Part shown: positions 10,489-63,000 of the stretch, piece after piece | How positions within the stretch are numbered: position 1 is the first letter of the stretch | Layout: every line of letters begins with the position of its first letter | Assembly: GCA_964428445.1 (NCBI GenBank) | Contig: CAYRYC010000001.1 | Span: 13,704-77,703 of the forward strand | Source of the DNA: an uncultured Methanosarcinales archaeon | Lineage (GTDB): Archaea > Nanobdellota > Nanobdellia > Woesearchaeales > SKGA01 | DNA length: 64,000 nt | Reading direction: 5' to 3' | Notes under the pieces: model-generated | Told to the model about the DNA's origin: nothing | Database searches by the model: none | What the model saw: only the letters and a program-made list of their open reading frames with translations | Position numbers and translations under genes: made by a program

Positions 10489-11151
10489 ATGAAACTAGAT
10501 ATTCCTCTTATTCGTCAAGCAAAAGAATCTTTTGATTGCGGTCTTGCAAGTATAGCTATGATTCTTAAGTATCATGGAATTGAAAAAGAAATTATTGATA
10601 TCAAAAAAGAACTTACAATCCATAAAGATGTAGGATCATATATATCAGAGCTAGGAACGTACTTTCTAAAACAAGGATTTGATGCAAACATAGTTACAAT
10701 GAATCCTCATTTATTCACAAAACAACTCGAAAACAATTCTCCCAATCAATTAATATCTCATCTAAAAGAAAAAAGAAAGGAAATGAAACAAGAAATATCT
10801 GTCAATTCAGTAACATATTTGATAGATTTTTTAGAGCAAGGAGGAATAATTGATGTCAAAATACCTTCAGCCGAATACATTAAAAATGAAATTTCACAAG
10901 GAAGACCATTATGTTCATGGGCAACAACTAATTTTTTAACAAACAATTCATCAAAATTTAATTATCACTTTAATGTTATCACGGGAATCGATAATAAAAA
11001 TATTTATGTTAACGACCCAAGCCAAGACGCTTATGGTGGCAAAAAGCAATACGCTATTAATGATTATTTATACGCAATACATTCAACAGCACATGTTTGC
11101 CCAGAAGCAGCATCAATATTAACAATTAAAACAAACAGAGAAAAAAAATGA
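10489..11151 (+). CDS. peptidase C39-like (papain-fold) cysteine peptidase domain protein
   Basis: N-terminal IRQAKESFDCGLASIAMILKYHG is the Q...C-G-xA-S-xAMxL signature of C39/bacteriocin-processing-like peptidases. A downstream His is present. Confidence 0.5.
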   Translation: MKLDIPLIRQAKESFDCGLASIAMILKYHGIEKEIIDIKKELTIHKDVGSYISELGTYFLKQGFDANIVTMNPHLFTKQLENNSPNQLISHLKEKRKEMKQEISVNSVTYLIDFLEQGGIIDVKIPSAEYIKNEISQGRPLCSWATTNFLTNNSSKFNYHFNVITGIDNKNIYVNDPSQDAYGGKKQYAINDYLYAIHSTAHVCPEAASILTIKTNREKK

Positions 11152-11849
11152 ACTTAAAGCATTTAGAACAAGTTTTGGAAACTCCTTATCTAGGAATCGT
11201 ATCATTCGTTAGACACGGTGATAAAACCAAAGAAGGTCAATTATCAGAAAAAGGTAAAGAACAAGCTCGAAAACTTGGTCAAAAATTTAAACAAATTCAC
11301 AAAGAAGGCAAAGTATTTTTACGATCAAGTTCAAGCGATATGGACCGAGCAAACGACACAGTAAAAGAAATATTTAGTGCTGAACCAAAATATAACAAAC
11401 CAATAAGTAAAAATATGCAAGTAGAACCATATTTTTCTAACGAAATTATGGAAAAATATGTAAAAATCATGAAAGAAGAAAGTGAAGTTGCAGGATTTGA
11501 TTGGTTTCTTAATTCTTCACATGGAAAAGACTTAGCAAAACACTTTTCATACATACTTAGTTCAGCAAGTCAAGACGCTAAAAAAATCACAAAAAAAGAT
11601 TTAAATTTCCATTATATTCACGGAACACACGAAGCACTTCCAGAAGCTTTGCTAAAAAGAGTTCTTATCATAAAAGAAGGAAAATCAGGCTTTGATAGCA
11701 TCGATGATATTGGCGGAGGTCTCAAACTTGCAGAACCTATAAATTTCATTCTAGGTATAGATAATAAATACAAAGTAGAAATGAGAAACAAAACATACAA
11801 TGTTGATATGAAAGCATTAAATGATCTAGCTTCTCAATATACAGAATAA
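11148..11849 (+). CDS. histidine phosphatase superfamily (phosphoglycerate mutase-like) protein
   Basis: GIVSFVRHGDKTKEGQLSEKGKEQA carries the RHG catalytic motif. Start overlaps the upstream stop (ATGA). Confidence 0.5.
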   Translation: MNLKHLEQVLETPYLGIVSFVRHGDKTKEGQLSEKGKEQARKLGQKFKQIHKEGKVFLRSSSSDMDRANDTVKEIFSAEPKYNKPISKNMQVEPYFSNEIMEKYVKIMKEESEVAGFDWFLNSSHGKDLAKHFSYILSSASQDAKKITKKDLNFHYIHGTHEALPEALLKRVLIIKEGKSGFDSIDDIGGGLKLAEPINFILGIDNKYKVEMRNKTYNVDMKALNDLASQYTE

Positions 11850-11863
11850 ATTTTTATTTTATT

Positions 11864-14800
11864 TTAATTTTTTTCTAAAATTCTCACAATGCCATTGTCA
11901 GCATCGACTTCAACTAAGTCTCCATCCTTAAGAACTTTTGTTGCAATCTTAGTTCCTATAATACAAGGAACGCCTAGCTCTCGAGAAACAATGGCTGCAT
12001 GACATAATAATCCGCCTTCATCAGTAATAAATGCGGCTGCACGTCGCATACCTGTAATTAATTCCGGCGTAGTCATGCTTGCAACAAGAATTTCTCCTTC
12101 TTGAAGTTCATCAGCGTCTTTTTGAGTATAAGTTTTTTTTACTCTTCCTATAACCTTACCTTTAAAGGCAATAGTCCCTTTTAGTTCATTAACATTTTCT
12201 GTAAAAGGTTCAAATTCAGTTATTCCTTCTCTTTGTATAAGTTTGTCCACTTCCTCTTTTCCAAAAACTTCTTCATATTTACCATCATCTAAAATCAATG
12301 CAAAATATTTTGCACGTTCAGTTAAATCTTCTTCAGGTAAAATCTCTGTTTCTAGCCAAGTAACAAATTCGTCTTCAAATAAATTCATAATCTTTTCTTC
12401 ATTAAAACCAAGATTTGTTAATGTTTTTCTTAAGGCCCAATTAGCACGTACTAAAGCAGATTTACTCTCATCAAACATATATGATGTTCTTCTTATAATA
12501 TCTATTAACCAATCAATATATTCATCATCATATTTTGGAACTTCATTAGTTATTGGTTTTTGTTCTTCTTTAAGTGGACGTTTAATTTCATAAATATAAT
12601 TTTCTGCTAACCATTCTTTGGCCATGTATTCTGAATGAATAAATCCAAAAGATTCAGCAAGTTTTTTTGCTTCATTTTTCATTTCTTCATCATCAATCAA
12701 TTCTTTATGATATTTTTCTTTTATCTCGTTGATAGCATGATTCTCTTTGCTAATCGTTGTTAGTTTATGAGGTATAGTAATATTTAATTTAACTTTTTCA
12801 AATTCTTTTTCACCTAAAACAAATTTTAGTTGCTCTAAAGCAATTTGAGTCAAATAATAACCAGAAAACATGAAACCAACTTCTTCCTTATACGAACCAG
12901 AAAATTTCAATAAATCATCTTTTTTAGAACTTGGAAGAAGTTCCAAATCTTTTTCAATAGTATCATCTACTTTAATTAAAATTTCATAGACATCAGAATT
13001 TTTCTTTGAAATTAATTCTTTGAAATTAGTATCAAAACAAGCTTTTGTAGATTCGAAATCAACGGAACTTTTCTCACCATAAAAAATAGCCAGATATTTA
13101 GGATAATTAAAATACAAATTGTTTATCTTCGTTCCTTCTTTCAAGATACTCATCATACTTGACCAAGTTAAAGGAGATAAATTTCTTGCTCCTAATTTCG
13201 TCCATTTGATTACAGAAGCATCATTCAATATCTTAACAATGCCATTATCAGCATCGACTTCGACCATATCGCCCGTTTTAAGAATTCTTGTAAGTCCCTT
13301 TATACCTACAATGCAAGGAATCTTTAATTCTCTTGAAGTTATAGACGCATGGCATATTGCACCACCATGTTCGGAAAGTATTGCTACAGATTTTTTCATA
13401 GCAGGGAGAAAATCAGGAGTGGTTGTTGAAGAAACAATAATTTCATCTTCTTGGAATTGTCTTACTTCATCTATATTTTCAACACAACGAACTTTACCTT
13501 TTACTTTTCCAGGATACGCTGTTTGACCTTCAAGTAAAGTTTTCCCTTCAACATTCTCTTCCTTAATTTCTATGTTGAATTTTTCTTTAACAGCTTCCAT
13601 AGAATCCTGTAATTGACCGTCAGTGTATACAAAACCTTCTAATCTTTTTCTAAGAACATCATCTGAAGGTAAAATTCCTGATTCTACTTCTTCTAAAGAA
13701 ATAACGTCAACGAATTGTTGTTTCTCAGGAAAAAGTTTTTTCAAAGTGTTTCTAATAGTTCCTGTTGTTCCTGGAGCTAGTTGTTCTGTTTGTTTTCTCA
13801 CTATAATAAGATCTTCTAAAGGTAAATTCTTTTTATCGTAATATTCAATCGCCCACCACATGCAATCCCACCAAGCCCATGCATCTCGGATGTTCTTTAT
13901 GAAATCTAAAAAATCTTCTTTGCTTAAAGCAGGTTTATTGAGAATAATATCTTCAACTTTTTTGTAATGTTTAATAGTTTCTTCTTTCATTACTTCTTTA
14001 TCGAACTTTCCTGCCTGCTCTATCTTCCAATCTATACCTTTAGGATTATAGTAATAATATAGAAGATTATTTTTTCGTTCGAAAACACAATAAGGATGAA
14101 AAGTGAATGGTTCGTTTAACCAAGGAACGTCTCGTCTTGATTCTTCCTGATTGGTTAATTCTGCAATAATTAAAGGAAAGTCATGATGCATTAGTTGAGT
14201 GTATTCTTTTTTTTTATTCTTTTTTTCAAGAATTTTTACAATTCCATTGTCAGCATCAACTTCGACGAAATCGCCATCTTTGAGAACTTTCGTTGCAATT
14301 TTAGTTCCAACAACACAAGGAATGTTGAGTTCACGAGAAACAATAGAAGCATGACAAGTTAATCCACCTTCATCTGTAACAATTGCAGATGCTTTTTTCA
14401 TTGCAGGTACAACACTTGGAGTGGTAGCTGTTGATACTAAAATATCTCCTTTATTCATTTTATGCATATCAGCAGGTTCATTTATTATTTTCACAATTCC
14501 TTTTGCAAAGCCTTTACATGCCAGAGATCCTTTGATACTGTCCACATCCTCCAGGGTTTCTTCTCTTTCAAATGTTGAAATAAAATCTTGCGCGTCTTGG
14601 CCGTGAATAACAAGAACACCACCTTCTTTTTTAGAAAGAATTACATGAAAATCATATAGACTATCCAAAAGATCGCTGTCTACAGATCCGTTTGCAAGAC
14701 CTTCTTTGAAAAGTTCAGGAGTAAGACCTCTTGCTTGATTAAAAGAAATGTTAAGACGTTTAGCAATTTCTTTAAACATCATTTGCATATGATAATAACT

Positions 14801-16717
14801 TTTACTCTGGTGATCTTTTCTTCTAGGTTTTGCCCAAACTACTTTTCCTGTTAAACGAAGAATCATCTCGTTAAACTCATCCGGCTGAAGTTTTTTTATT
14901 ATGTCCTCTCGTTTTTCACCTATTTGTTTTCTTTTTAATCTTATTTCAATTAATTCTTCTTGGGGAGTTTTATTTTTAGAAAGATTATCCTTAATAAAAT
15001 CTAAAAACTCTTTTTCAGTAAATGCAGGTCCTGCATATACATAATATATCCAAGCATATTTTTCTGTGTGTTCAGAAAGTTTTTTGAAAAAATCAAGATG
15101 AGAAGTTTTCAAAGATTCAACTGTTCCTTGCAAGATATCTTTACTCCATTGCCCAGAATAAAACTCACTCATCAATTCTAAAAGAGCTTCTTCTTGATCT
15201 TGAGCATAGGAATTATATAAAGGATAAGTACATATATCATAATACTCTTGAAATTCTTCAACAGAACTTGTTTTAGATTCTAAAAACGATTTCATATTTC
15301 CTTCAACAAAAGAAAAATCTCGGAAATCCATTATAGAAAGTATCATACCATAAGCATCCAGCATTTTCATTTTATAACGAAATTGTTCGTACAAAGAGAA
15401 TAATTCGTCGTTAGAAAAAGTTGAAAAATCTTTTGTAAAAATATTCTCTTGACTCCATATATTAAATACATCTCCCATTTTAAGAGTTTTATCAATTAAT
15501 TTTTCTACATAATATCTATCTGCTTCAATATATGTTTTTAATTTATTGTGAGCTCTAATCCAAGTATCCATATCAACACAATAATCCAATTTTCTTTTTC
15601 TACTTGCAATACCGCCCATCAATCGCGGAATATCAAACTCTTTTGCTTGTATTTCAAAAGATTCCATCCACAAATAATTTCTAAACATATGAGAGTTAAA
15701 ATCATTTGCAACACTAACTAAATTAGCGTCAGTATATACAAATCCTTTTTTCGAACTAAGCGTTGTTATAGGTCGACTTTGCACAATGTAGAATTCTCCG
15801 CCTTCCATAGCCCATTCTATATCCACAGGAAAACCATAATGTTTTTCTATCTTAACAGTAAGCTTAGATAATTCTACGATTTCATCTTTAGTAAGAGCTT
15901 GTTTAGAACCTTCTGATAAAGTCAGTTCCTTCCAAACATTACCACCACCAACATCACGAACAAGTTCTCTAGGCTGCTCATTAATTTGAACATCAGTAAA
16001 AGACCAATCTCGTTTATCAACAACATAACTATCAGGAGTTATTTGTCCAGAAACAATAGATTCGCCAAGACCGAAACCAGCCTCGATAATAATTTGATCA
16101 TAATCTTGAGTAACAGGATGAACAGAGAAAGCAATTCCAGAAACTTCGCTGGCAATCATTTTCTGAACAACAACAGCTACAGAAATTTGTTCATCATGCA
16201 ATTCTTTTTCAAAACGATAAGCAATAGCACGAGGAGTAAATAAAGAAGCCCAACAAAGTTGAACATTCTTCAGTAATGTTTCTTCAGTTGTGTTCAAGAA
16301 AGAATCCAATTGACCAGCCCAAGCTGCGTCTGCACTATCTTCAGAAGTTGCTGAAGAACGAACAGCGACAAAAGGAGCATTAAGATTTTTGAATTCAAAT
16401 AAAATTTCTTCTTTTAGATCTTCAGGAAAAGCTCTACCTTTAATCAAACCTTGAATAGCCTCGGAAGCAAAATCAACAGTATGAACTGCCTCGGTATCTA
16501 CTTTATCAAGTTCAACTTGAATCTCAACTTTAAGATTGCTTTCTTCGACAAAACGATCAAAAGCAGAAGACAAAACAACATAACCAGGAGGAACAGCAAT
16601 ACCCGCTTGAGTCATCTCTCCAAGAGAAGCTCCTTTACCTCCAGCAATATCTACATTCTTGCTGTTCAAATCAGAAAATCGTTTAATAAAAACCATAAAA
16701 GTACTATATTCACCCAA
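11864..16717 (-). CDS. giant PEP-synthase/PPDK-like protein: N-terminal PPDK_N ATP-grasp domain followed by three phosphohistidine (PEP-utilising mobile/swivel) domains
   Basis: 1617 aa. N-terminus FSDLNSKNVDIAGGKGASLGEMTQAGIAVPPGYVV...GGEFYIVQSRPIT is PPDK_N. Three swivel domains carry the catalytic His: GGLTCHASIVSRELNIPCVVG, GGAICHASITSRELKIPCIVG, GGLLCHAAIVSRELGVPCIIG. Each ends with G-D-x-V-E-V-D-A-D-N-G-I-V. No PEP-utilising TIM-barrel C-terminal domain. Confidence 0.75.
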   Translation of the reverse strand: MGEYSTFMVFIKRFSDLNSKNVDIAGGKGASLGEMTQAGIAVPPGYVVLSSAFDRFVEESNLKVEIQVELDKVDTEAVHTVDFASEAIQGLIKGRAFPEDLKEEILFEFKNLNAPFVAVRSSATSEDSADAAWAGQLDSFLNTTEETLLKNVQLCWASLFTPRAIAYRFEKELHDEQISVAVVVQKMIASEVSGIAFSVHPVTQDYDQIIIEAGFGLGESIVSGQITPDSYVVDKRDWSFTDVQINEQPRELVRDVGGGNVWKELTLSEGSKQALTKDEIVELSKLTVKIEKHYGFPVDIEWAMEGGEFYIVQSRPITTLSSKKGFVYTDANLVSVANDFNSHMFRNYLWMESFEIQAKEFDIPRLMGGIASRKRKLDYCVDMDTWIRAHNKLKTYIEADRYYVEKLIDKTLKMGDVFNIWSQENIFTKDFSTFSNDELFSLYEQFRYKMKMLDAYGMILSIMDFRDFSFVEGNMKSFLESKTSSVEEFQEYYDICTYPLYNSYAQDQEEALLELMSEFYSGQWSKDILQGTVESLKTSHLDFFKKLSEHTEKYAWIYYVYAGPAFTEKEFLDFIKDNLSKNKTPQEELIEIRLKRKQIGEKREDIIKKLQPDEFNEMILRLTGKVVWAKPRRKDHQSKSYYHMQMMFKEIAKRLNISFNQARGLTPELFKEGLANGSVDSDLLDSLYDFHVILSKKEGGVLVIHGQDAQDFISTFEREETLEDVDSIKGSLACKGFAKGIVKIINEPADMHKMNKGDILVSTATTPSVVPAMKKASAIVTDEGGLTCHASIVSRELNIPCVVGTKIATKVLKDGDFVEVDADNGIVKILEKKNKKKEYTQLMHHDFPLIIAELTNQEESRRDVPWLNEPFTFHPYCVFERKNNLLYYYYNPKGIDWKIEQAGKFDKEVMKEETIKHYKKVEDIILNKPALSKEDFLDFIKNIRDAWAWWDCMWWAIEYYDKKNLPLEDLIIVRKQTEQLAPGTTGTIRNTLKKLFPEKQQFVDVISLEEVESGILPSDDVLRKRLEGFVYTDGQLQDSMEAVKEKFNIEIKEENVEGKTLLEGQTAYPGKVKGKVRCVENIDEVRQFQEDEIIVSSTTTPDFLPAMKKSVAILSEHGGAICHASITSRELKIPCIVGIKGLTRILKTGDMVEVDADNGIVKILNDASVIKWTKLGARNLSPLTWSSMMSILKEGTKINNLYFNYPKYLAIFYGEKSSVDFESTKACFDTNFKELISKKNSDVYEILIKVDDTIEKDLELLPSSKKDDLLKFSGSYKEEVGFMFSGYYLTQIALEQLKFVLGEKEFEKVKLNITIPHKLTTISKENHAINEIKEKYHKELIDDEEMKNEAKKLAESFGFIHSEYMAKEWLAENYIYEIKRPLKEEQKPITNEVPKYDDEYIDWLIDIIRRTSYMFDESKSALVRANWALRKTLTNLGFNEEKIMNLFEDEFVTWLETEILPEEDLTERAKYFALILDDGKYEEVFGKEEVDKLIQREGITEFEPFTENVNELKGTIAFKGKVIGRVKKTYTQKDADELQEGEILVASMTTPELITGMRRAAAFITDEGGLLCHAAIVSRELGVPCIIGTKIATKVLKDGDLVEVDADNGIVRILEKN

Positions 16718-16889: not shown

Positions 16890-17060
16890 CTAAAGATCTT
16901 TTGCCATTACTGTCTTTCGACCGTTTGCTTCAGCTCTTTGAACAGCTTTAGCAACAATTTCTCTTGTGATTTTGTCTAGTTCTTCTGCGAAGTCACCAGC
17001 AACATTGTAGTCACCAACAACATCTTTAATTTTTGCCTTTACAACTAATAAATCTGCCAT
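16890..17060 (-). CDS. archaeal histone-fold protein (HMf-like, single fold)
   Basis: MADLLVVKAKIKDVVGDYNVAGDFAEELDKITREIVAKAVQRAEANGRKTVMAKDL; the C-terminal AxxAxxxGRKTVxxxDL is the archaeal histone signature. GAGGTG Shine-Dalgarno site 8 nt upstream of this ATG. The track ORF begins 15 nt earlier at a GTG. Confidence 0.6.
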   Translation of the reverse strand: MADLLVVKAKIKDVVGDYNVAGDFAEELDKITREIVAKAVQRAEANGRKTVMAKDL

Positions 17061-20960: not shown

Positions 20961-21091
20961 TGCGGGAGCGGAGATTTGAACTCCGGACTTCCACGGTGCA
21001 TCACCAATTGAATAATCATCGACAATAAATTGTCTCATCGCTCAATTGCGTTTATGAGCGTGGCGATCTAACCAGGCTGAACTACTCCCGC
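20961..21091 (-). tRNA. tRNA-Met (anticodon CAU) with ~56-nt intron adjacent to the anticodon loop
   Basis: Reverse-complement reads GCGGGAG-TA-GTTCAGCCTGGTTAGATC-G-CCACG-CTCATAA-[intron]-CGTGG-AAGTC-CGGAGTTCAAATCTCCG-CTCCCGC-A. CCA is not encoded. The exact intron junction (37/38 or 38/39) is ambiguous by eye. Confidence 0.7.
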
Positions 21092-38588: not shown

Positions 38589-39671
38589 TCACCTTATTAA
38601 TTTGACTATTCCTTTATTTGCATCAACTTCTACAAGATCACCATCTTTTAATAGAGTGGTAGCATTACCAGTTCCGACAATGCAAGGTATTCCTAACTCT
38701 CTGGAAACAATTGCGGCATGGGAAAGTAAACCTCCTTGATTAGTAATAATAGCAGCGGCTTTTTTACAAGCAACGAATAGTTCTGGAGAAGTTGTTTCTG
38801 CTACCAATATTTCTCCTTCTTTCATTTTATTAATCAATTCTTTAACAACATCAAAATTGTTGTAGCCATAAACAAAAAGATTTACATTTCCTCTAACAAG
38901 TCCTTTGTTAGCAGGAGTTCCTTTTACAACAAAAATTTCTTTTACAAGAGGACATTCTTGCCCTTTGAATGAGGCAATTTGTTTTTTTGCATCCACACCT
39001 ATAAGGACTGTTTTATTTTTTTCAAAAGATGTAAAGTATGCTTGTTTTCTTCTAAACAGAATAGATTCTTTTACTTCTTTATCATTAAACAGAGCAAGTA
39101 ATTCTTCGTGAGTATATTGTTGTAATAAATCAAAATTTATCTCGAACTTTTCACTTAGTTGATTTAGACATCTGTTAATATAACTTTGATTTCCAAAAAA
39201 GACTTTATTCAGATCTTCTCTCCGAGCGTTCTTCATATTTGCTAAACTGGACAAGTTTGTTTTTGTTATTTCGCAATCTTTTTTGAAGGCTCGATCTACA
39301 TAAAAAAATTCTGTCTTAATATAGTAGGTATGAAATAAAACAATATAATTGAGAAATTTTTCTAGATTAGCTTTAGAAATATCCTTGGAAAAAAACGATT
39401 CAATAAATTCATTAAACTCAGTTACATAATTATCAAACTCATTCACATAGTTCGAAAATAATCTAGGAGACGATAATAACCTTACACCATAATCTAATGT
39501 CTTATCAACAACAGAGCGAGGTAAATAGCCAATCCAATCTGTCCCATCAAAAAGAAAAACAGCATTAAGATTGGAATAATTTTTCACTAAAGTATCATTA
39601 ACAAAAAAAGGCATTCCTCCTACTTCAAACAAACGTTGATAGTCAAGAATAGTTTTTTTCTTAAACAACAT
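38589..39671 (-). CDS. stand-alone PEP-utilising (phosphohistidine swivel) domain protein with N-terminal substrate-binding-like region; no ATP-grasp domain
   Basis: C-terminus EILVAETTSPELFVACKKAAAIITNQGGLLSHAAIVSRELGIPCIVGTGNATTLLKDGDLVEVDANKGIVKLIR is nearly identical in pattern to the three swivel domains of the 1617-aa protein. Confidence 0.65.
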   Translation of the reverse strand: MLFKKKTILDYQRLFEVGGMPFFVNDTLVKNYSNLNAVFLFDGTDWIGYLPRSVVDKTLDYGVRLLSSPRLFSNYVNEFDNYVTEFNEFIESFFSKDISKANLEKFLNYIVLFHTYYIKTEFFYVDRAFKKDCEITKTNLSSLANMKNARREDLNKVFFGNQSYINRCLNQLSEKFEINFDLLQQYTHEELLALFNDKEVKESILFRRKQAYFTSFEKNKTVLIGVDAKKQIASFKGQECPLVKEIFVVKGTPANKGLVRGNVNLFVYGYNNFDVVKELINKMKEGEILVAETTSPELFVACKKAAAIITNQGGLLSHAAIVSRELGIPCIVGTGNATTLLKDGDLVEVDANKGIVKLIR

Positions 39672-39672
39672 T

Positions 39673-40299
39673 TTATTTCACCAATTTATCTAACGCCTTA
39701 GGAACAAAGTAACAAATTTGTTCTACTGCTTTTTCATATTCTTTCAAACCTAAACCATATGCATTGGGGATCGTGTCGTCCGGATTACCGGTAACAAATG
39801 AAGCTAAAGATGAAATTAAAGGTTTTTCTGATATATTATCATATATAGAAATTACTTGTTTGTTGTTAGATTCAGCCATAGAAAAAACTGCTAAAGCATC
39901 TGCATGTACAATAGTTTGATCTTGTTTAGATTTCACTTGCCCTTTAATATTAAATTTTTTTAGAACTTGTTCTCTATGGTGGAGCTCTTCATTAGCAAAA
40001 TATGAAACGGCTTCATTAAATAAACTTGTAACAAAAGCAAGATTTTCCTGATTTAAGGCGATTTTATAATCACTACACTTTGAAGGAGAATATATCTTTC
40101 TCTCTATTCCTAAATCAACAATAGAACTTTGTACACTTAAAGGAATAGCTCCTGTTTTAGATAAAGCTACTAAAGTTCCACTTGAGCGAGTTCCATAATC
40201 TAGTTTTTGTTTAAGTAAATAATTTTGTCCTACAAGCTCGGCCACAGGAGATCTTCCTTGATTTCCTGTACAAACGAATTCTATCATATTTTTAATCAT
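39673..40299 (-). CDS. low-molecular-weight protein-tyrosine phosphatase / ArsC-like (CX5R) protein
   Basis: MIEFVCTGNQGRSPVAE carries the V-C-x5-R P-loop. Its stop lies 2 nt from the start of the swivel gene. AGAGGT Shine-Dalgarno site 8 nt upstream. Confidence 0.65.
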   Translation of the reverse strand: MIKNMIEFVCTGNQGRSPVAELVGQNYLLKQKLDYGTRSSGTLVALSKTGAIPLSVQSSIVDLGIERKIYSPSKCSDYKIALNQENLAFVTSLFNEAVSYFANEELHHREQVLKKFNIKGQVKSKQDQTIVHADALAVFSMAESNNKQVISIYDNISEKPLISSLASFVTGNPDDTIPNAYGLGLKEYEKAVEQICYFVPKALDKLVK

Positions 40300-40370
40300 A
40301 ATAATTACCTCTTGTTACTACTGAGCGATGACTCGTATATAAATCTATGTGGGAGTTCACCACCCACAAC

Positions 40371-40380
40371 ATTTATATTC
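40371..40380 (+). promoter_or_regulatory. TATA box ~26 nt upstream of GTG start of TrmB-like regulator
   Basis: atttatattc; GTG at 40401. Confidence 0.35.
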
Positions 40381-40400
40381 TCTGAAGAAATACAATCACA

Positions 40401-41117
40401 GTGAAAGAACAATTACTTGCAATAGACTTTGACGATAAGGAAGCAGACATATACACAGCTCTTCTTAAGTTAGATAATGCTAGTGTAAGTGAACTTCTCA
40501 AAAATACATCAATTGAACGAAGAACGATTTACGATGTTTTAGAACGACTCATACAAAAAGGAAGAGCAAGTTATTTCGAAGAAAATAATACACGAAAGTA
40601 TAAAGCCATTTCTCCTGAAATTATTCTTGAAGAACTGAAACACAAACAAAAAGAATTCGAAGCAATAATTCCCAAACTTCAAAGTTTACAAGAAACACCT
40701 AGTGGTGCTAAAGTTGAAATACTCAAAGGATTAAAAGGATTAAAAGCAATATTTCTTGAAGCAATACAGGCAGAACAGACGCACTATTCTTTTGGAGACC
40801 TAAGCCCACTCATGTATGAAGAAAAATATGCAAAAGAAGTAGCAAAATTTCTCAAAGAAATTGAAAAAAAAGGAATGAAGGAAAAAATACTTTATGGAAA
40901 AGGAGATCCTATTAAAAAAATCAAAGGAGGAGAATATAGAACAGTCAACAAAGAAGATATAGCTCCTTCACCAACACTTATTTGTGGAGATGTTGTTACG
41001 CAATATATTTATACTGATCCAATAACCATAATAAAAATAACAAGTAAAGAAGTTTCAGAAACATACAAACAATATTTCAATCATTTCTGGAAACTTGCTA
41101 AAAGAGATAAAAAATGA
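40401..41117 (+). CDS. TrmB-family HTH transcriptional regulator
   Basis: LLAIDFDDKEADIYTALLKLDNASVSELLKNTSIERRTIYDVLERLIQKGRASY is a TrmB-type winged HTH. GTG start. Confidence 0.6.
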   Translation: MKEQLLAIDFDDKEADIYTALLKLDNASVSELLKNTSIERRTIYDVLERLIQKGRASYFEENNTRKYKAISPEIILEELKHKQKEFEAIIPKLQSLQETPSGAKVEILKGLKGLKAIFLEAIQAEQTHYSFGDLSPLMYEEKYAKEVAKFLKEIEKKGMKEKILYGKGDPIKKIKGGEYRTVNKEDIAPSPTLICGDVVTQYIYTDPITIIKITSKEVSETYKQYFNHFWKLAKRDKK

Positions 41118-45342: not shown

Positions 45343-45415
45343 AGCCTCGGGCGAGATTTGAACTCGCGACCTGTCGCTTACTAAGCGACCGCTATAGCCA
45401 CTAAGCCACCGAGGC
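45343..45415 (-). tRNA. tRNA with anticodon loop UUAGUAA (apparent anticodon AGU, Thr-like body)
   Basis: Reverse-complement reads GCCTCGG-TG-GCTTAGTGGCTATAGC-G-GTCGC-TTAGTAA-GCGAC-AGGTC-GCGAGTTCAAATCTCGC-CCGAGGC-T. The D-arm is identical to the two tRNA-Thr genes nearby. Confidence 0.65.
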
Positions 45416-45471: not shown

Positions 45472-45583
45472 AGCCTCCGCCGAGAGTTGAACTCGGGACC
45501 TCTGCATCTTTGAAATTCGATGAATTACAAATCATTCGTACGAATATACCAATGCAACGCTATAGCCACTAAGCCACGGAGGC
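45472..45583 (-). tRNA. tRNA-Thr (anticodon GGU) with ~39-nt intron at canonical 37/38 position
   Basis: Reverse-complement reads GCCTCCG-TG-GCTTAGTGGCTATAGC-G-TTGCA-TTGGTA[intron]A-TGCAG-AGGTC-CCGAGTTCAACTCTCGG-CGGAGGC-T. Confidence 0.75.
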
Positions 45584-57005: not shown

Positions 57006-60000
57006 CTATTTCTCTTTAGTAAATGTAGAACTATAATCTAATTCAGCAAATGCTGCTTGAAGGAAAGGATGTAGTTTTTCTTTCTCTTCTTCAGATAAAG
57101 TTTCATATATTTTAACAGCTTCTGAATATTTCTTTTTAGAAATAAGTAACTCGTCAAATTCTAAAGCAAGTGTTGCATTGTAAAGAAGTTCTTGAACTCT
57201 CTTGAAAGGCTCTTCAGATAAAGACATCTCGTTAATTGATCGAGCAACATCTTCAGTTTCAGTTTTAGAAATACTTAATACTTGTTCTCTAAATAATTCT
57301 AGGCTAAGAAGTAATTCTTCTCTAGATAATAATTCTTCTTTACTTAGTAATTTATGTATTTCTTCTTGATCCTTAAGAGATTTTTTTACTTTATTAGTGG
57401 TGGAAAGTTTTTCAATGGATCGATTATTTTCTTTCATACGACTATTTGTAAAAATGAATCCAAAGAAATTAGTAAATAATAAACTTAATTTATGTTGAGG
57501 AACATCTACCGATTTTGTTGAAACAGATTCTTTTTCCAGACCAGATAAATTTCTTAATAATTGTTTTTTCTGTGCTGCGGTTAATAATACTTGTTTAGCC
57601 TTATGACCTAAAGCAATAATTCCATATTTACTTGCTATTTTTATAGCTCCTAATAATATTAATGCCAATAGACCAAATCCTATTATACGAGCTGTTTTGT
57701 TATCAAATAATTCTCCTGCTTTACATGCTTCGCAAGAACCGCCACAATCAACACCTTTTTCATTTTGATTTTTTATACCATCAAAACAAGTTCCGCAGGG
57801 TTCACAAGGACCGCCACAATCAACACCTAATTCTCCGTAATTTTGAATACCATCAAAACAATTTTTACAAGGAACACAGAAAGGACCGCCACAATCAATT
57901 TCTTCTTCGAAATTATTAAAGATTCCATCAAAACAAGTTTTACACACATCACAGAAAAGTCCGCCACAATCAATATCTTCTTCTCCTTGATTTTTTATAC
58001 CATCATTACAACTAGCACAAGGTTTACATTCTCCACCACAATCAACGCCTTCTTCGAATTCATCCTGTATACCATTTTCACAGAAAATTAATTGTTCACA
58101 GCTTTCTTCAAAATATAATTCATTATTAGTGTAACAACTATTGTTATCAACGCAGGTTCTATTTTTTGTTCCATTCTCATTGCAAGGAGACCAGTCAGGG
58201 CAGAACCAATTAGGAGTACAAAATCCTCCGCCTCCACCGCCTCCACCAGGAGGAGTTGTAGTTGTTCCAATTTTCAAAGTATTGTTTGTTGTAGCCCAAG
58301 AGGATGCAAAATAAACATCATAGGCAAGACAGTTCCATTCATATGTCGCCAAAGGTAAACCTGAAACAATCCAAGAATTACTATCTGAATTTCCGGAAGA
58401 TGAAATAGAATTTTCATAAAAAATTACTCCGGTATTAGCATTCCAAACGCTTAAACTAAAATTGTATAAGTCTGTATTTGAAGTAACATTACATGTAAAT
58501 GTCTGTGTTGTGGAAGTTGATTGTGTATTATCAGTAGGAGCAACAAGAGTTACTAAAGGAGCATCTACAAAATCACAGGCTTCATTAAGATTAGCAGGAG
58601 CATATGTACAATTCCATAGTTCTCCATTAGTTCCAACTCCTGAACTAGAATAATTATTACAAATAAAGAACGATTCTTTTGTTGAATTAGCAGGATCTAA
58701 ATCTAAATCATATATTCCAGTCCATAAACCATAAAGATTATCATCCGATGGAGTTGTTATGGATCCTGAACAGGTCACAAGATCTCCTGAATAGCTTGCA
58801 GGAATTGTTCCTGCATTAACAACGGATCCATTTGTTGCTTGATAATATACATTGCATTTTGAGATGCTTTCTGAATCGTCACTGTAGAACTGCGAACTCA
58901 CACTTATTGTTATTAATGAACTATTATAGAAATTATTTGTTAATAAAAATGATCCTGATTTATACGCAGGAATTATATTAATTGTTTTTGATTCGGAAAC
59001 GGCTGTTGCATAATTACCCGTATCATCCCGTGCCCAGAATGAAAAATTATATGTTCCGCTTTCAACCATATTTCCTATTGTGAATTTACAATCGGAAGCA
59101 TCATCTCCTGAAACAAGATAGGAGTTCGGACCTGAAGCATTGTAGAAACAACGATCAATGGTTCCATCTTGATAATCTCCATTCTCAGTATCATTTGCAG
59201 AAACCCCAAACCACACACCAGAACCATAGCTAATATTTACTGAGCTAGCAGAAGGTTCGCTAATTGCTAAATTAACCGTTGGAGAAATATTATCAAGTAT
59301 TCTAAAATCAATGCTATGTCCTGTTGAAGGAACAGCAATGGTAAAATATAATTCAAAAGCATCATTAAAAATAGTGTCGTTGGTAGGAATGTTTACTGTC
59401 ATAGATATTGAACTAGCACCGGAACCGTTTACTGCATCCTGAAGAACTATTTGTCCTTTTGTATTAGAACCATCTTCAGAATATGATTGAGTTTCAAAAT
59501 TAGCCTGTGTTGATCCTGTTGTAATAAAATTTTCTCCTTGTAAACCAAGATGAACGGGAAGAGCAACACCTAAAAGATTACCAAGCCATAAATAAGCAGT
59601 AGAAGAATAGGAACCATATGTAAATTGTATTGTGAAATTATTTCCTAATCTTACTCTATTATCCCATAGAGCATAAAGTCCGTCAAATGTTTGCGAACTT
59701 GTTGAAGGAGGAACATATGTTCCAGTCATAAGAGTATTGACAATACAATATGCTTGAGCCGCGCAATCGCTATCAACGCAATCAATGGAACCATCGCCAT
59801 CATTATCAATGTCATCATTACAAACTTCTGCACTGCAAGAAGCAAATCCTAAACAATCACTATCCTGGCAATCAACTTGACCATCGCCATCATTATCATA
59901 GTTATCAGAACAAAGATAAGCATTATTTTCTATAGCAAGATAAAACTGATGATCATATGATGAAAGTTGATATAAACAATCAGCATCGTTCTCATCGATT

Positions 60001-63000
60001 TGAGAATCATAATCATTATCAGAACCATCTGCACATGCATCCCATTCGGTTAATTCTATATTAGGACAAGCATAACAAATACCATTTGAAAAAAGACCGA
60101 ATGAACCAAACGCTTGATAACAATCAGGATCAAAACAATCTTTAGGCCCATCCAAATCATCATCTATATTGTTATCGCAATAGAAATCAATTCTTGGAAG
60201 AAAAAAGAAAAATGCATCTGAAGCATTAAACTCGTAGTCTAAACAAACATCATACACATTTTCAGGATTAGCTACACCAATACAATTAGGATCGGAACAA
60301 TCTATTCCTCCACTTGCATTTGCACTATATCCTGCACCATTCCAATAGTATGCATCCATATCATTATCTATATTATCAAAACACCAGGACGCGTTAAGTG
60401 CTTCTGATGAAGGAACTTCAGCTTTATCCGCACAATCATAGTCATCGAAATCAGCATCATTGCTGAAAGTTTGATTGAATAATAATGCATATAGAGTTTG
60501 ATTATTTGTCCAACCAGGATTCGGCATTGAACCTGCTTCAGAATCATAATCATTATCAAACTCATCATAGCAATTTAGTTCTCTTTCTAATTCGCAAACT
60601 TTTCCATTGCTTAATGTTTCGTTACCACAATCTTCATCGGGATGATTATCAGAACCATAGGAAAAATATCCTCCCCAATGACAATCCATTCCAGCTCCAC
60701 TTGTTAGGTTGAAAGAATAACCGTTTGCTCCACCAGTGGTTGTATACCAAAGGTCCCAATCGTTATCAACACCATCATTACATTCAGAACCGAGTTCATT
60801 ATCATCTAATGTTGCTCGACAATGGGAAGAACAATCATATTCGGCATCATTATAGGAACCCGTTAGACTTCCTTCACAATCTAGTTCTTGCCAATAGTCA
60901 TTATCAAAACCATCGGTACAATTTAATTCAATTTTATATTGACATACTTGTGTTGCATTACTTGGATTAATAATTACATCACAATCTTTATCTCTACAAT
61001 CAATATCAGTTAATCCTGTATTAGCATGACCCCACATATCATCTTCTAGAGCCCAATCATTATTGTATTGATCGAAACATGCAGCCGCATCAATATACTC
61101 TCCACCATAACCACAACGACCTGTTGTGTCACCGTTCGTATAATAATCGTCGTGGGCAGGAGGACCTGGTTTAGTATTACAATCAATATCATAACAATCA
61201 TAGGATTGAAAATCAAAACAATATTGTTCGTTTCCACTACAATCTAAATAATCAAAGTCTCCGTTCTTTGTATCATTACAAGAATCCCAAGTCATACTTG
61301 GATCGTTTAGGCGAATTTCCCATTCGTTATTGTTATCGCTGCTCCATCGTGGACGACTATCACCAATCGGGATATATGTTAGATCGTCGAAATAAATTGT
61401 TATGTTAACAGTATCTTCGTAAGCAACTAAACCTTCTAAATAATTTAATGTAAGTTCAATAATATATCCTTCATCCATGCTTACGTTTGATTCATTGAAA
61501 TAAATAAGTAAAGTTGTATCTATGTTTGCAATCTCCGTTCCACCTGCTTGATATGATCGAAGAATAACTTGGTTCGTATGCGTTTCTGATTCGTTGAGAG
61601 TATCCTGATCTACAGGAATATTATTTTTATCTAAGAAATAAACAAATTCACCGTTGCTTGATCCAGTACCTGGGAAAATTTTTGTAACATTTTCTATTTG
61701 AGGAAAACCTCTAACAAAAATAGTTGCTGTTTTAGAAACAGACCAATGAGATAATCTCATTTTGAATGTACCATTAGGCATTGTGTGTTGCGTGTATTCA
61801 ATACTTGTTTCTCCAAAACTAGAACTGAACGATGTTGTGTTTATTTCCATGTCTCCTATAGGAATATCATTTGCCAATGTTCCGTGAGAACCGGAAGGAG
61901 AATAGTATAAACTAGTGTTGGCAAAAGATTGTTTTGGTTTATTACTATATGTAACTCCCCAACATTCAGGATCTGCAGTATCAATTAATGAATCTGGTTC
62001 TGTTGGATTATCAATTTCATCATGACAAAATAATTCTACATTTGTTCCGCCGTATTTTGAAACTGCGAACGCAACGTCTCCGTCTTGATCTGCTTTTATG
62101 GTGTTTTGTGCAAACATGTCTTCTGCGGATTTTGCATTTACTGAATTTGCAATATCACCAAGTGTCCATGTTATTGGACGTACATGGATATTCCAATTTA
62201 CAGAATCATTAACAACAATTGGTGAAAGCGAAGCATTGTAATGACCACACTCAAGAACTCTCCAAGGAATCCAGTTATCGGAAGTTCCATTTCCCGTTGA
62301 ATTTATGCTGTCAGAAGAAACTAGTACATAGGTGACACTGACGTTTCCATCTGTTATGTTAGACGTTAAGGTAGTGTTAGCAAAGATTTGGCGACAGCCA
62401 GCTAAACCGTCATCGTAACAATTGGACTGGTTAATATAACAACCCACAATGTCACCCAATGTACCAGTAATATGATCGAAAGGTATTGTAAAATTATAGA
62501 GATAGTTTCCTGCCGCAGGAAGCGGACTTGGTTCAAGATAATAGAATCCTTCAGGATATGTTGGATAAATGATATTATTTGCTTGAACTGTAAAACTTAC
62601 ATTGACTTCGTCAACGCTGTTAGAACAATTTCGTTCATCGATTACTGTAAAAGTTAGATTACTTATTCCGACGGTGGAAGAATTAGGAGTAACAGTTATT
62701 GTTCCGTTAGAATATAGATTGAATGTTAAATTTCCGCTTGTTGTATTTTGATAATAATATAATATGTCATCATTAAAATCAGTGGCGTCAAGTTGACAGG
62801 AATAATATGCTCCTTCGAAAAGATCAGTAGAACAATTAAATAAGATTTCAGGCGGATTATTAATGCAGGTTTGAACAGAACCATCAATGGCATCGCCAGT
62901 TACCCAGCTCGACATATCCATATCATGGAAGGCAAGATATGTTGGAACAAACAATGTTAACACTAGAGCTATAAATAGCACTACGCCTAACACCCTTTGC

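What the first reader, a model, noticed from the sequence alone, without database searches (positions are those of the whole stretch)
11864..16717. 1617-aa PEP-synthase-like protein with one ATP-grasp (PPDK_N) domain and three tandem phosphohistidine swivel domains, lacking the PEP/pyruvate TIM-barrel
- PEP synthase, PPDK and rifampin-phosphotransferase-like enzymes carry a single His swivel domain that shuttles phosphate.
- Here three near-identical swivel domains follow one ATP-grasp domain, each with the GG-x-x-CHA-x-I-x-SREL-x-IPC core and the GD-x-VEVDADNGIV tail.
- The swivel domains are separated by ~300-aa regions that share internal motifs (EKEFLDFIKDN versus KEDFLDFIKNI), which suggests whole-unit triplication.
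- The DNA copies are also recognisably similar (11880, 13230, 14230).

I do not recognise this as a described enzyme; it could be a processive or multi-substrate phosphotransferase.
Basis: partly seen in the sequence, partly recalled or inferred. Interest (0 to 1): 0.6.

Follow-up and report, generated by a model that had tools for sequence, protein, structure and literature searches.

The report
Three-module RPH-like dikinase fusion
This archaeal gene fuses one ATP-binding "charger" domain to three different substrate-binding-plus-phosphate-carrier modules, and it belongs to a large, apparently undescribed family of such multi-module kinases (2-8 modules per protein, or up to 12 module genes in a row) in the tiny-genome DPANN archaea and CPR bacteria.

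Summary
The architecture is real. An intact ORF (11864-16696, minus strand, 1610 aa from the ATG) encodes one PPDK_N ATP-grasp domain and three PEP-utilizers swivel domains. All three keep the catalytic His, and there is no PEP/pyruvate TIM barrel. The identical protein occurs on 10 contigs from independent assemblies, so it is not a mis-assembly.

It did not arise by triplication in place. Each linker+swivel module has closer relatives in other proteins than among its siblings. Relatives carry 2-8 shuffled modules, or tandem arrays of up to 12 stand-alone module genes, and no sampled locus has more than one ATP-grasp.

Most likely mechanism (inferred): the ATP-grasp phosphorylates each swivel His, and each swivel passes the phosphate to a different acceptor bound by its own linker domain. 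The substrates are unknown.

I found no description of this architecture in the literature. I rate it a new variant of a known kind.

The parts
11864..16696 (-). Whole gene: 1610-aa three-module dikinase (ATG start at 16696, TAA stop at 11864-11866). The mechanical ORF extends to a TTG at 16717. Residue numbers in this report use the 1617-aa numbering; subtract 7 for numbering from the ATG.
   Evidence: ORF list; upstream sequence; the exact 1610-aa product is called on 10 contigs; coordinates checked.
15740..16693 (-). ATP-grasp nucleotide-binding domain (PPDK_N), residues 9-326. It is the only one in the protein.
   Evidence: Pfam PF01326, E 3.8e-93. Aligns with archaeal PEP synthase 8a8e and with RPH 5hv1/5fbs over residues 7-324.
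14531..15739 (-). Acceptor domain L1 (long form, family F1), residues 327-729. It has the fold of the RPH rifampin-binding domain. Conserved residues are W556, G563, P564, K630, R633, K634, E650 and R654.
14228..14530 (-). Swivel domain S1, residues 730-830. Catalytic His789 is encoded at 14351-14353.
   Evidence: Pfam PF00391; own HMM; motif GGLTCHA.
13529..14227 (-). Acceptor domain L2 (short form, family F0), residues 831-1063. It is a reduced version of the RPH-type domain.
13226..13528 (-). Swivel domain S2, residues 1064-1164. Catalytic His1123 is encoded at 13349-13351.
   Evidence: motif GGAICHA.
12179..13225 (-). Acceptor domain L3 (long form, family F7), residues 1165-1513. Homologous to L1.
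   Evidence: hhalign F7-F1 99.0-99.7% probability over 344 columns. Not modelled here.
11876..12178 (-). Swivel domain S3, residues 1514-1614. Catalytic His1573 is encoded at 11999-12001.
   Evidence: motif GGLLCHA.
11148..11849 (+). Convergent neighbour, 233 aa, histidine-phosphatase superfamily (RHG motif). A possible functional partner; the association is suggestive only.
   Evidence: Pfam His_Phos_1 23.5 bits against a cut-off of 21.7. The only NCBIfam hit is SixA, E 7e-4 and far below its cut-off. His_Phos_1 matches 9/149 proximal vs 2/150 distal neighbours of family genes, Fisher p = 0.03.
38589..39671 (-). Fourth module of the same family in this genome, as a stand-alone protein of 360 aa (F2-type short linker plus swivel, GGLLSHA). 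It has no ATP-grasp domain of its own.
   Evidence: Swivel HMM E 1e-35; F2 linker HMM E 8.4e-65; Pfam PF00391.
39673..40299 (-). Low-molecular-weight phosphatase (LMWPc) gene, 1 nt upstream of the stand-alone module on the same strand. A possible partner.
   Evidence: Pfam PF01451, E 2.7e-8. A protein with a C-x5-R-S motif also abuts the relative P0008.

Best explanation
The gene encodes a fused, three-module member of the RPH/HpeHI class of small-molecule dikinases.

Shown:
- There is one N-terminal ATP-grasp domain.
- The module, linker plus swivel, is the unit of inheritance.

Inferred from the RPH and HpeHI mechanism:
- The ATP-grasp domain binds ATP, and a swivel His attacks the beta-phosphate.
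- The gamma-phosphate is released as Pi and AMP leaves, which produces His~P.
- The swivel then swings back onto its own acceptor domain and phosphorylates the small molecule bound there.
- The reaction is ATP + X + H2O -> AMP + Pi + X-P.
- The single ATP-grasp domain does this in turn for His789, His1123 and His1573. It probably also serves, in trans, the stand-alone module encoded at 38589-39671.
- The three acceptor domains share under 20% identity, so the enzyme should phosphorylate three different acceptors.

The acceptors themselves are unknown. Candidates are xenobiotics or antibiotics (as for RPH) or scavenged metabolites (as for HpeHI).
For: - Domain map: one PPDK_N and three PEP-utilizers, no TIM barrel.
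- All three swivels keep GG-x-x-C-H-A.
- The A2 profile aligns with RPH 611-866 at E about 1e-29. It places the family's conserved K-x-x-R-K motif on the RPH R666/E667/K670 helix, which is the experimentally defined phosphotransfer site (PMC4844700).
- L3 is homologous to L1 at 99.7%.
- One ATP-grasp can serve many modules. In 28 loci with three or more swivels, none has more than one ATP-grasp gene or domain. Some have one separate ATP-grasp gene of 282-344 aa beside 3-10 stand-alone module genes: L023, L028, L031, L040.
- Separate ATP-grasp and substrate+swivel proteins are proven to work together in HpeHI, CreHI and PpsAB (PMC12167813).
- Modules are shuffled between proteins, and each swivel travels with its linker, as expected for autonomous functional units.
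Against: - There is no biochemical evidence for any member, and no substrate is known.
- S1 and S2 are internal and tethered at both ends by connectors of about 10-12 residues. How they reach the ATP-grasp site (about 49 A of travel in RPH) has not been modelled. The full protein exceeds the size limit for prediction.
- The basic motif that maps to the RPH catalytic helix is clear only in L1-type linkers. Its equivalent in L2 and L3 is not resolved, so not all modules are shown to be competent.
- In the RPH alignment the charged residues are offset by one position (K630 aligns with E667, A629 with R666), so the chemistry of the site may differ.
Confidence: 0.6

Rival explanations
1. PigC/HapC-like ligase modules. 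Each module uses His~P to activate a bound substrate (for example an aldehyde or carboxylate) as a transient phospho-intermediate, which is then condensed with a second substrate. The products would be ligation products, not phosphate esters.
For: PigC and RedH share the same ATP-grasp / central domain / swivel layout. NCBIfam PigC and RedH models score 429-440 bits on the query. A stand-alone relative aligns with PigC from the linker into the swivel: P0130 residues 244-507 against PigC 618-881.
Against: All scores are far below the PigC and RedH cut-offs of 1300-1350. No pigment or secondary-metabolite genes lie nearby. CPR and DPANN organisms have little biosynthetic capacity (general knowledge).
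Confidence: 0.12
2. Only one module is catalytic. The other swivels and linkers would be regulatory, a phosphate buffer, or an intramolecular phosphorelay (ATP-grasp to S1 to S2 to S3), which is the 'processive' idea.
For: The basic motif that maps to the RPH catalytic helix is clear only in L1. Internal swivels are tethered at both ends.
Against: - All three swivels keep the catalytic motif.
- L2-type and L3-type modules occur directly after the ATP-grasp domain in other proteins, and as stand-alone proteins. They therefore function without an L1 module.
- Module order is shuffled freely, which does not fit a fixed relay.
Confidence: 0.12
3. The acceptors are macromolecules (proteins, or glycans as for glucan-water dikinase), or the system is a phospho-signalling device. 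The adjacent histidine-phosphatase, LMW-phosphatase and HAD genes would act as the opposing erasers, possibly on the swivel His~P itself.
For: Phosphatase-fold genes recur next to family genes. His_Phos_1 matches 9/149 proximal vs 2/150 distal neighbours, p = 0.03. LMWPc genes abut two family genes, and HAD genes two. The window's neighbour has SixA, a phosphohistidine phosphatase, as its only NCBIfam hit.
Against: The enrichment is modest, and the phosphatases show no detectable similarity to each other. The SixA hit is far below its cut-off (19.4 vs 74.5 bits). The acceptor domain fold matches a small-molecule-binding domain. Every characterised relative acts on small molecules (PMC12167813, PMC4844700).
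Confidence: 0.12
4. Assembly or annotation artefact: tandem paralogous genes fused in frame by mis-assembly, or a real PEP synthase as automatic pipelines would name it.
For: The NCBIfam PEP-synthase equivalog NF005057 scores 655.9 against a cut-off of 598. Split versions of the system exist elsewhere.
Against: - The identical 1610-aa product, with identical neighbours, is found on 10 contigs from at least three samples and assemblers.
- Of the 120 closest relatives, 119 carry 2-5 swivels in a single ORF.
- The NF005057 score is only the sum of the ATP-grasp and three swivel stretches. Model positions beyond about 460 (the TIM barrel) are unmatched, TIGR01418 is below its cut-off, and Pfam finds no PEP-utilizers_C.
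Confidence: 0.02

Closest known systems
Rifampin phosphotransferase RPH (Listeria monocytogenes; PDB 5FBS/5FBT/5FBU, 5HV1)
   Same: - The order ATP-grasp, then helical substrate-binding domain, then C-terminal swivel His domain is that of the query's first 830 residues.
- The profile alignment covers RPH 611-866, including the R666/E667/K670 helix.
- The dikinase mechanism, with a swivel shuttling between two sites, is established for it (PMC4844700).
   Different: - RPH has one module and the query has three.
- Structural identity is 17%, and the RIF_Ptrans_rph model scores 420.6 against a cut-off of 999.
- Rifampin-binding residues are not expected to be conserved.
- L2 is a shortened version of the domain, at 233 aa against about 430 in RPH.
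Two-component small-molecule dikinases HpeHI, CreHI and phenylphosphate synthase PpsAB
   Same: HpeH, CreH and PpsA are a substrate-binding domain plus a swivel. HpeI and PpsB are a separate ATP-grasp protein. That shows an ATP-grasp can charge a swivel on another polypeptide (PMC12167813). The stand-alone modules of this family, including the 360-aa one at 38589-39671 and the tandem arrays, have the same layout.
   Different: Those systems pair one ATP-grasp with one module and act on phenolics in free-living bacteria. Here one ATP-grasp goes with 3 fused modules, and with 2-12 in relatives. HpeH is about 640 aa, whereas these modules are 330-520 aa. I made no direct sequence comparison with HpeH, CreH or PpsA.
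PEP synthase / pyruvate phosphate dikinase
   Same: These are the best sequence matches for the ATP-grasp and swivel domains (8a8e E 1e-92; NF005057). They use the same phospho-His swivel chemistry.
   Different: The query lacks the C-terminal PEP/pyruvate TIM barrel. The swivel follows, rather than precedes, the second substrate domain. There are three swivels.
Prodigiosin/tambjamine ligases PigC, RedH, HapC
   Same: They have the same three-domain layout as RPH, with partial model matches.
   Different: They are single-module condensing enzymes in pigment gene clusters. Scores are far below their cut-offs.

Membership tests
PEP synthase (pyruvate, water dikinase) | N-terminal ATP-grasp (PPDK_N) domain | tested here: met
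   PF01326, E 3.8e-93, residues 23-324.
PEP synthase (pyruvate, water dikinase) | C-terminal PEP/pyruvate-binding TIM barrel (PEP-utilizers_C) | tested here: not met
   No Pfam hit at E <= 0.1. The NF005057 and TIGR01418 stretches cover only the ATP-grasp and swivel parts of the models. The spacers have the RPH-type fold instead.
PEP synthase (pyruvate, water dikinase) | Curated whole-protein score cut-off | tested here: inconclusive
   NF005057 scores 655.9, above its cut-off of 598, but only by adding three swivels. TIGR01418 scores 622.7, below its cut-off of 739.75.
RPH-type small-molecule dikinase (RPH / PigC / HpeHI class) | ATP-grasp domain plus swivel domain with catalytic His in a T/S-x-x-G-G-x-x-x-H context | tested here: met
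   TDEGGLTCH, SEHGGAICH and TDEGGLLCH, with His789, His1123 and His1573. Motif definition from PMC12167813.
RPH-type small-molecule dikinase (RPH / PigC / HpeHI class) | Second substrate domain with the RPH rifampin-binding-domain fold, placed immediately N-terminal to the swivel | tested here: met
   [not shown]
RPH-type small-molecule dikinase (RPH / PigC / HpeHI class) | Phosphotransfer residues on the apex helix (RPH Arg666, Glu667, Lys670) | tested here: inconclusive
   The conserved K630/R633/K634 of L1 align on that helix, but offset by one position (K630 with E667, R633 with K670). The equivalents in L2 and L3 are unresolved.
RPH-type small-molecule dikinase (RPH / PigC / HpeHI class) | One acceptor module per ATP-grasp domain | tested here: not met
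   There are three modules in this protein, 2-5 in the 120 closest relatives, and 8 in L033.
RPH-type small-molecule dikinase (RPH / PigC / HpeHI class) | Dikinase chemistry (ATP -> AMP + Pi, beta-phosphate transferred) | not testable with these tools
   Needs an enzyme assay.
Rifamycin-inactivating phosphotransferase proper | Equivalog-level similarity and rifampin-binding site | tested here: not met
   NF041857 scores 420.6 against a cut-off of 999, and NF000283 scores 290.8 against 1700. [quoted passage not shown]
Two-component dikinase (HpeHI/CreHI/PpsAB) | ATP-grasp and substrate+swivel parts on separate polypeptides | tested here: not met
   They are fused in the 1610-aa protein. However, the window's 360-aa module (38589-39671) and many relatives are in the split form.

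The most novel reading that the evidence does not exclude
DPANN archaea and CPR bacteria carry a previously unrecognised, combinatorial 'phosphorylation battery'. One ATP-grasp charger serves a fast-diversifying set of 2-12 acceptor modules, fused or arrayed. In this reading, the organism uses the set to phosphorylate a broad and changeable range of foreign small molecules, such as host or competitor antibiotics, toxins or scavenged metabolites. The neighbouring histidine-phosphatase, LMW-phosphatase and HAD genes would reset the phospho-His carriers or recycle the products. That would make the system a major and so far unnoticed part of the chemistry of episymbiosis.
Probability: 0.3. Interest if true: 0.85.

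Novelty: new variant of a known kind. Interest (0 to 1): 0.66.

Why it matters
- **A new arrangement of a known enzyme class.** All characterised RPH-class dikinases pair one ATP-grasp with one acceptor domain. Here one ATP-grasp is wired to three acceptor domains, and to as many as eight in a single 3761-aa relative. That raises a concrete structural question: how do internal, doubly tethered swivel domains reach a single nucleotide site?
- **A large commitment by small genomes.** The family is big: 5203 cluster representatives for the L1-type linker alone. In the sampled loci it is found mainly in DPANN and CPR organisms. Some of these devote up to about 20 kb, 12 genes in a row, to it, a large share if their genomes are near 1 Mb. 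That implies an important function that is so far unstudied.
- **Current annotation is misleading.** Source annotations name relatives 'phosphoenolpyruvate synthase/pyruvate phosphate dikinase', 'rifampicin phosphotransferase' or 'PEP-utilizing enzyme'. The PEP-synthase equivalog model even passes its cut-off on this protein. This can inflate predictions of gluconeogenesis or of rifampin resistance in these lineages.
- **A natural modular toolkit.** If the modules prove to have distinct substrates, the family would be a ready-made set of parts for ATP-driven phosphorylation of diverse small molecules.

Tried and rejected
- **BLASTP of the protein against itself** gave only the identity hit, so I split it into units.
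- **Sequence searches of the linkers against solved structures** found nothing when the swivel was left out (A1). Only the module profile A2 reached RPH.
- **The search for related loci with A1** failed because it had no conserved stretch. With A2 the pattern lay in the swivel, so about a third of the 79 loci were ordinary PEP synthases and had to be filtered out.
- **The 2019-aa ORF at 57006-63065** looked like a paralogue because it has the same length as P0008. It is unrelated.
- **The adjacent phosphatase-like proteins from six loci** show no pairwise BLAST similarity, so they are not one orthologous partner gene.
- **Mapping the L1 basic motif onto L2** with alternative hhalign alignments was not significant.
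I therefore could not measure distances between the catalytic His and the conserved linker residues.
- **PADLOC** gave no hit to known defence systems.
- **Gene conversion between S1 and S3** was considered as the cause of the 80% DNA identity and set aside. That stretch is the family-wide consensus (IPCVVGTKIATKVLKDGD-VEVDA--GIV), and many foreign swivels are closer than the siblings.
Full report
**1. What is in the sequence**

The window has one uninterrupted ORF at 11864..16717 on the minus strand, 1617 aa from a TTG. The seventh codon downstream is an ATG at 16696 and gives MVFIKRFSDL.... Homologues start their ATP-grasp domain at residues 2-5. Gene callers on every contig that carries the gene report a 1610-aa product from that ATG. 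I therefore take 11864-16696 as the gene. Residue numbers below use the 1617-aa numbering; subtract 7 for numbering from the ATG.

Pfam finds one PPDK_N domain (residues 23-324, E 3.8e-93) and three PEP-utilizers swivel domains. It finds no PEP-utilizers_C TIM barrel. My own HMMs put the swivels at 730-830, 1064-1164 and 1514-1614. All three keep the catalytic context GG-x-x-C-H-A, with His789, His1123 and His1573, and the tail GD-x-VEVDADNGIV.

Window 11868-12040 vs 14220-14392 is 79.8% identical over 173 nt, and 13230-13444 vs 14232-14446 is 68.8% over 218 nt.

**2. Corrections to the observation**

- The swivels are 50-59% identical pairwise, not near-identical.
- The spacers are 403 aa (L1), 233 aa (L2) and 349 aa (L3), and show no BLAST similarity to each other.
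In the profile alignment, KEDFLDFIKNI of L2 (residue 933) pairs with SNDELFSLYEQF of L1 (about residue 433), not with EKEFLDFIKDN (residue 568).
- The spacers are nevertheless homologous at depth. hhalign gives 99.0-99.7% probability for L3 vs L1 over 344 columns, and 85-95% for L2 vs L1.

**3. Not an artefact**

The exact 1610-aa protein is encoded on 10 contigs. These include JGI 3300022890 (369 kb), JGI 3300005915 and ENA ERZ27315536, all with the same neighbours. The longest contig on record is 784 kb. Among the 120 best database relatives (983-2707 aa), 119 have two to five swivels behind an ATP-grasp in one ORF: 58 have three, 23 four, 21 two and 11 five.

**4. What the spacers are**

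Sequence searches with the spacers alone find no solved structure. I built a 98-sequence alignment of L1+S1 with colinear stand-alone relatives (A2) and a 41-sequence alignment of L2+S2 (A3).

- **Sequence-level link to RPH.** The A2 profile aligns with RPH residues 611-866 at E about 1e-29. In that alignment the family's most conserved linker motif, K-x-x-R-K-D (query K630, R633, K634), lies on RPH's Y-R666-E667-Y-P-K670 helix. That helix is the experimentally defined phosphotransfer site (PMC4844700). The charges are offset by one position, so the site may not be identical.

The same relationship, with RPH as the only structural match over substrate domain plus swivel, was reported for HpeH of the two-component kinase HpeHI (PMC12167813). 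L2 is a shortened form of the domain. Whether it keeps the basic motif is unresolved.

**5. The family around it**

I clustered the 392 inter-domain spacers of the 121 proteins. They fall into at least 76 BLAST families (41 of them singletons), and profile comparison joins the 16 largest into one superfamily with a long form (about 340-430 aa) and a short form (about 230-270 aa). The query is F1-F0-F7.

- **Modules are shuffled.** The same families occur in other orders and positions in other proteins. For example, F0 or F7 follows the ATP-grasp directly in several of them.
- **The module is the unit of inheritance.** For each swivel of the query, 55-125 swivels in other proteins are closer than its siblings. 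The closest ones are the swivels that follow the closest relatives of its own linker. So the gene was assembled from pre-existing modules rather than triplicated in place.
- **The family is large.** An exhaustive profile search with the L1-type linker finds 5203 cluster representatives (925 at E <= 1e-30). Of the best 152, 116 are stand-alone linker+swivel proteins of about 500 aa with no ATP-grasp. Stand-alone L2-type modules of 314-382 aa also exist.
- **Arrays and giant fusions exist.**
  - A scan of species-representative genomes, annotated with my own HMMs, shows tandem arrays of stand-alone module genes. There are 12 in 21 kb in a Nealsonbacteria MAG (L012), 10 plus one 313-aa ATP-grasp gene (L023), and 8 in a Woesearchaeota MAG (L027).
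  - One 3761-aa Woesearchaeota ORF carries one ATP-grasp and eight swivels (L033).
  - L004 shows the split and fused forms side by side: a 1036-aa ATP-grasp+2-swivel gene followed by four module genes.
- **Never more than one ATP-grasp.** In 28 loci with three or more swivels, none has more than one ATP-grasp gene or domain.
- **Taxonomy.** The organisms named are overwhelmingly CPR bacteria and DPANN archaea.
- **The window itself.** It is archaeal by several signs:
  - two Rfam tRNA hits of 112 and 131 nt that cover the whole 71-position model, which I read as intron-containing tRNAs;
  - a diphthamide synthase gene;
  - a Nanoarchaeota protein, P0008, as the closest named relative of the ATP-grasp domain.
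- **A fourth module.** The window also encodes a stand-alone 360-aa module at 38589-39671 (F2 linker E 8e-65).

**6. How it most likely works**

The following are shown:
- one ATP-grasp domain;
- three intact catalytic swivels;
- three RPH-type acceptor domains (L3 by homology only);
- modular inheritance;
- a ratio of one ATP-grasp to many modules across the family.

The three acceptor domains are very different from one another, so three different acceptors are expected. The stand-alone module in the same genome would have to be charged in trans, as in HpeHI.

Open points are the substrates, the way internal swivels reach the ATP-grasp (their connectors are about 10-12 residues), and the competence of the short L2 domain. 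I put 0.6 on this explanation. The rivals are PigC-like ligase modules, a single active module with regulatory or relay partners, and macromolecular or signalling acceptors with adjacent phosphatases as erasers. They share most of the remaining probability. The artefact or true-PEP-synthase reading is essentially excluded.

**7. Context genes**

The gene stands alone. It is convergent with a 233-aa histidine-phosphatase-superfamily gene whose end lies 14 nt from its stop codon (11148-11849). That gene scores 23.5 bits on His_Phos_1 against a cut-off of 21.7. Its only NCBIfam hit is the phosphohistidine phosphatase SixA, far below cut-off.

Similar small RHG-motif genes sit beside relatives in L004, L006 and L008. 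In a grouped Pfam scan of ORFs within 1.5 kb of family genes, His_Phos_1 is the most frequent family, at 9 of 149. It matches 2 of 150 ORFs lying 4 kb or more away (Fisher p = 0.03).

LMW-phosphatase genes abut the window's stand-alone module and the relative P0008. HAD genes follow two relatives.

This is suggestive only. The phosphatases are not orthologous to each other, and the control region is not a true genome background. There is no PADLOC hit.

**8. Comparison with what is known, and novelty**

It works like RPH/HpeHI and passes the fold and motif tests for that class. It fails the 'one module per ATP-grasp' feature, and it fails the equivalog tests for RPH, PigC and RedH. It is not a PEP synthase because it has no TIM barrel. 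Even so, the NF005057 equivalog passes its cut-off by adding up three swivels, so pipelines are likely to misname it.

Literature searches found only the single-module and two-component enzymes, plus a survey noting 'rph-like' resistance hits in CPR genomes (PMC8651080). I found no description of multi-swivel fusions or module arrays. The library lacks most subscription journals, so a prior description cannot be excluded.

I rate it a new variant of a known kind, with interest 0.66. The components are familiar. The one-to-many wiring, the combinatorial module shuffling and the scale of the expansion in minimal-genome symbionts are not.

Noticed in passing
window 38589-41117: A fourth dikinase module is encoded as a stand-alone 360-aa protein (38589-39671, minus strand; F2-type short linker plus swivel, no ATP-grasp). 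It lies 1 nt downstream of a low-molecular-weight phosphatase gene (39673-40299, minus strand) and is divergent from a TrmB-family regulator (40401-41117, plus strand).
   Followed up: partly
window 11148-11849 (+): A 233-aa histidine-phosphatase-superfamily protein (RHG motif) is convergent with the dikinase gene. Its only NCBIfam hit is SixA, a phosphohistidine phosphatase, and that hit is very weak. His_Phos_1 genes are about 4.5-fold enriched next to family genes in other genomes (9/149 vs 2/150, p = 0.03).
   Followed up: partly
L033:473-11758; L012:480-21358; L023:51-15502: Extreme relatives. One is a 3761-aa Woesearchaeota ORF with one ATP-grasp and eight swivels. Another is a Nealsonbacteria locus with 12 stand-alone module genes in 21 kb. 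A third locus has 10 modules plus one separate 313-aa ATP-grasp gene.
   Followed up: partly
window 11864-16696 (annotation issue): The NCBIfam PEP-synthase equivalog NF005057 scores 655.9 against a cut-off of 598 on this protein, only because one ATP-grasp and three swivel stretches add up. Automatic pipelines are therefore likely to name it phosphoenolpyruvate synthase although it has no PEP/pyruvate domain.
   Followed up: yes
window 20961-21091 (-) and 45472-45583 (-): Rfam tRNA hits of 131 and 112 nt cover the whole 71-position model. I read these as intron-containing archaeal tRNAs; ARAGORN did not report them. ARAGORN also calls a tRNA-Thr with anticodon AGT at 45343-45415, which would be unusual for an archaeon.
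   Followed up: no
window 57006-63065 (-): A second giant ORF of 2019 aa has only a weak bacterial-Ig (Big_9) hit. It is unrelated to the dikinase, although it has the same length as relative P0008. It is probably a surface protein.
   Followed up: partly
window 16890-17060 (-): A 56-aa ORF (MADLLVVKAKIKD...) lies upstream of the dikinase gene on the same strand. It is called as a gene on all three contigs examined and has no Pfam match.
   Followed up: no
[not shown]
   Followed up: no
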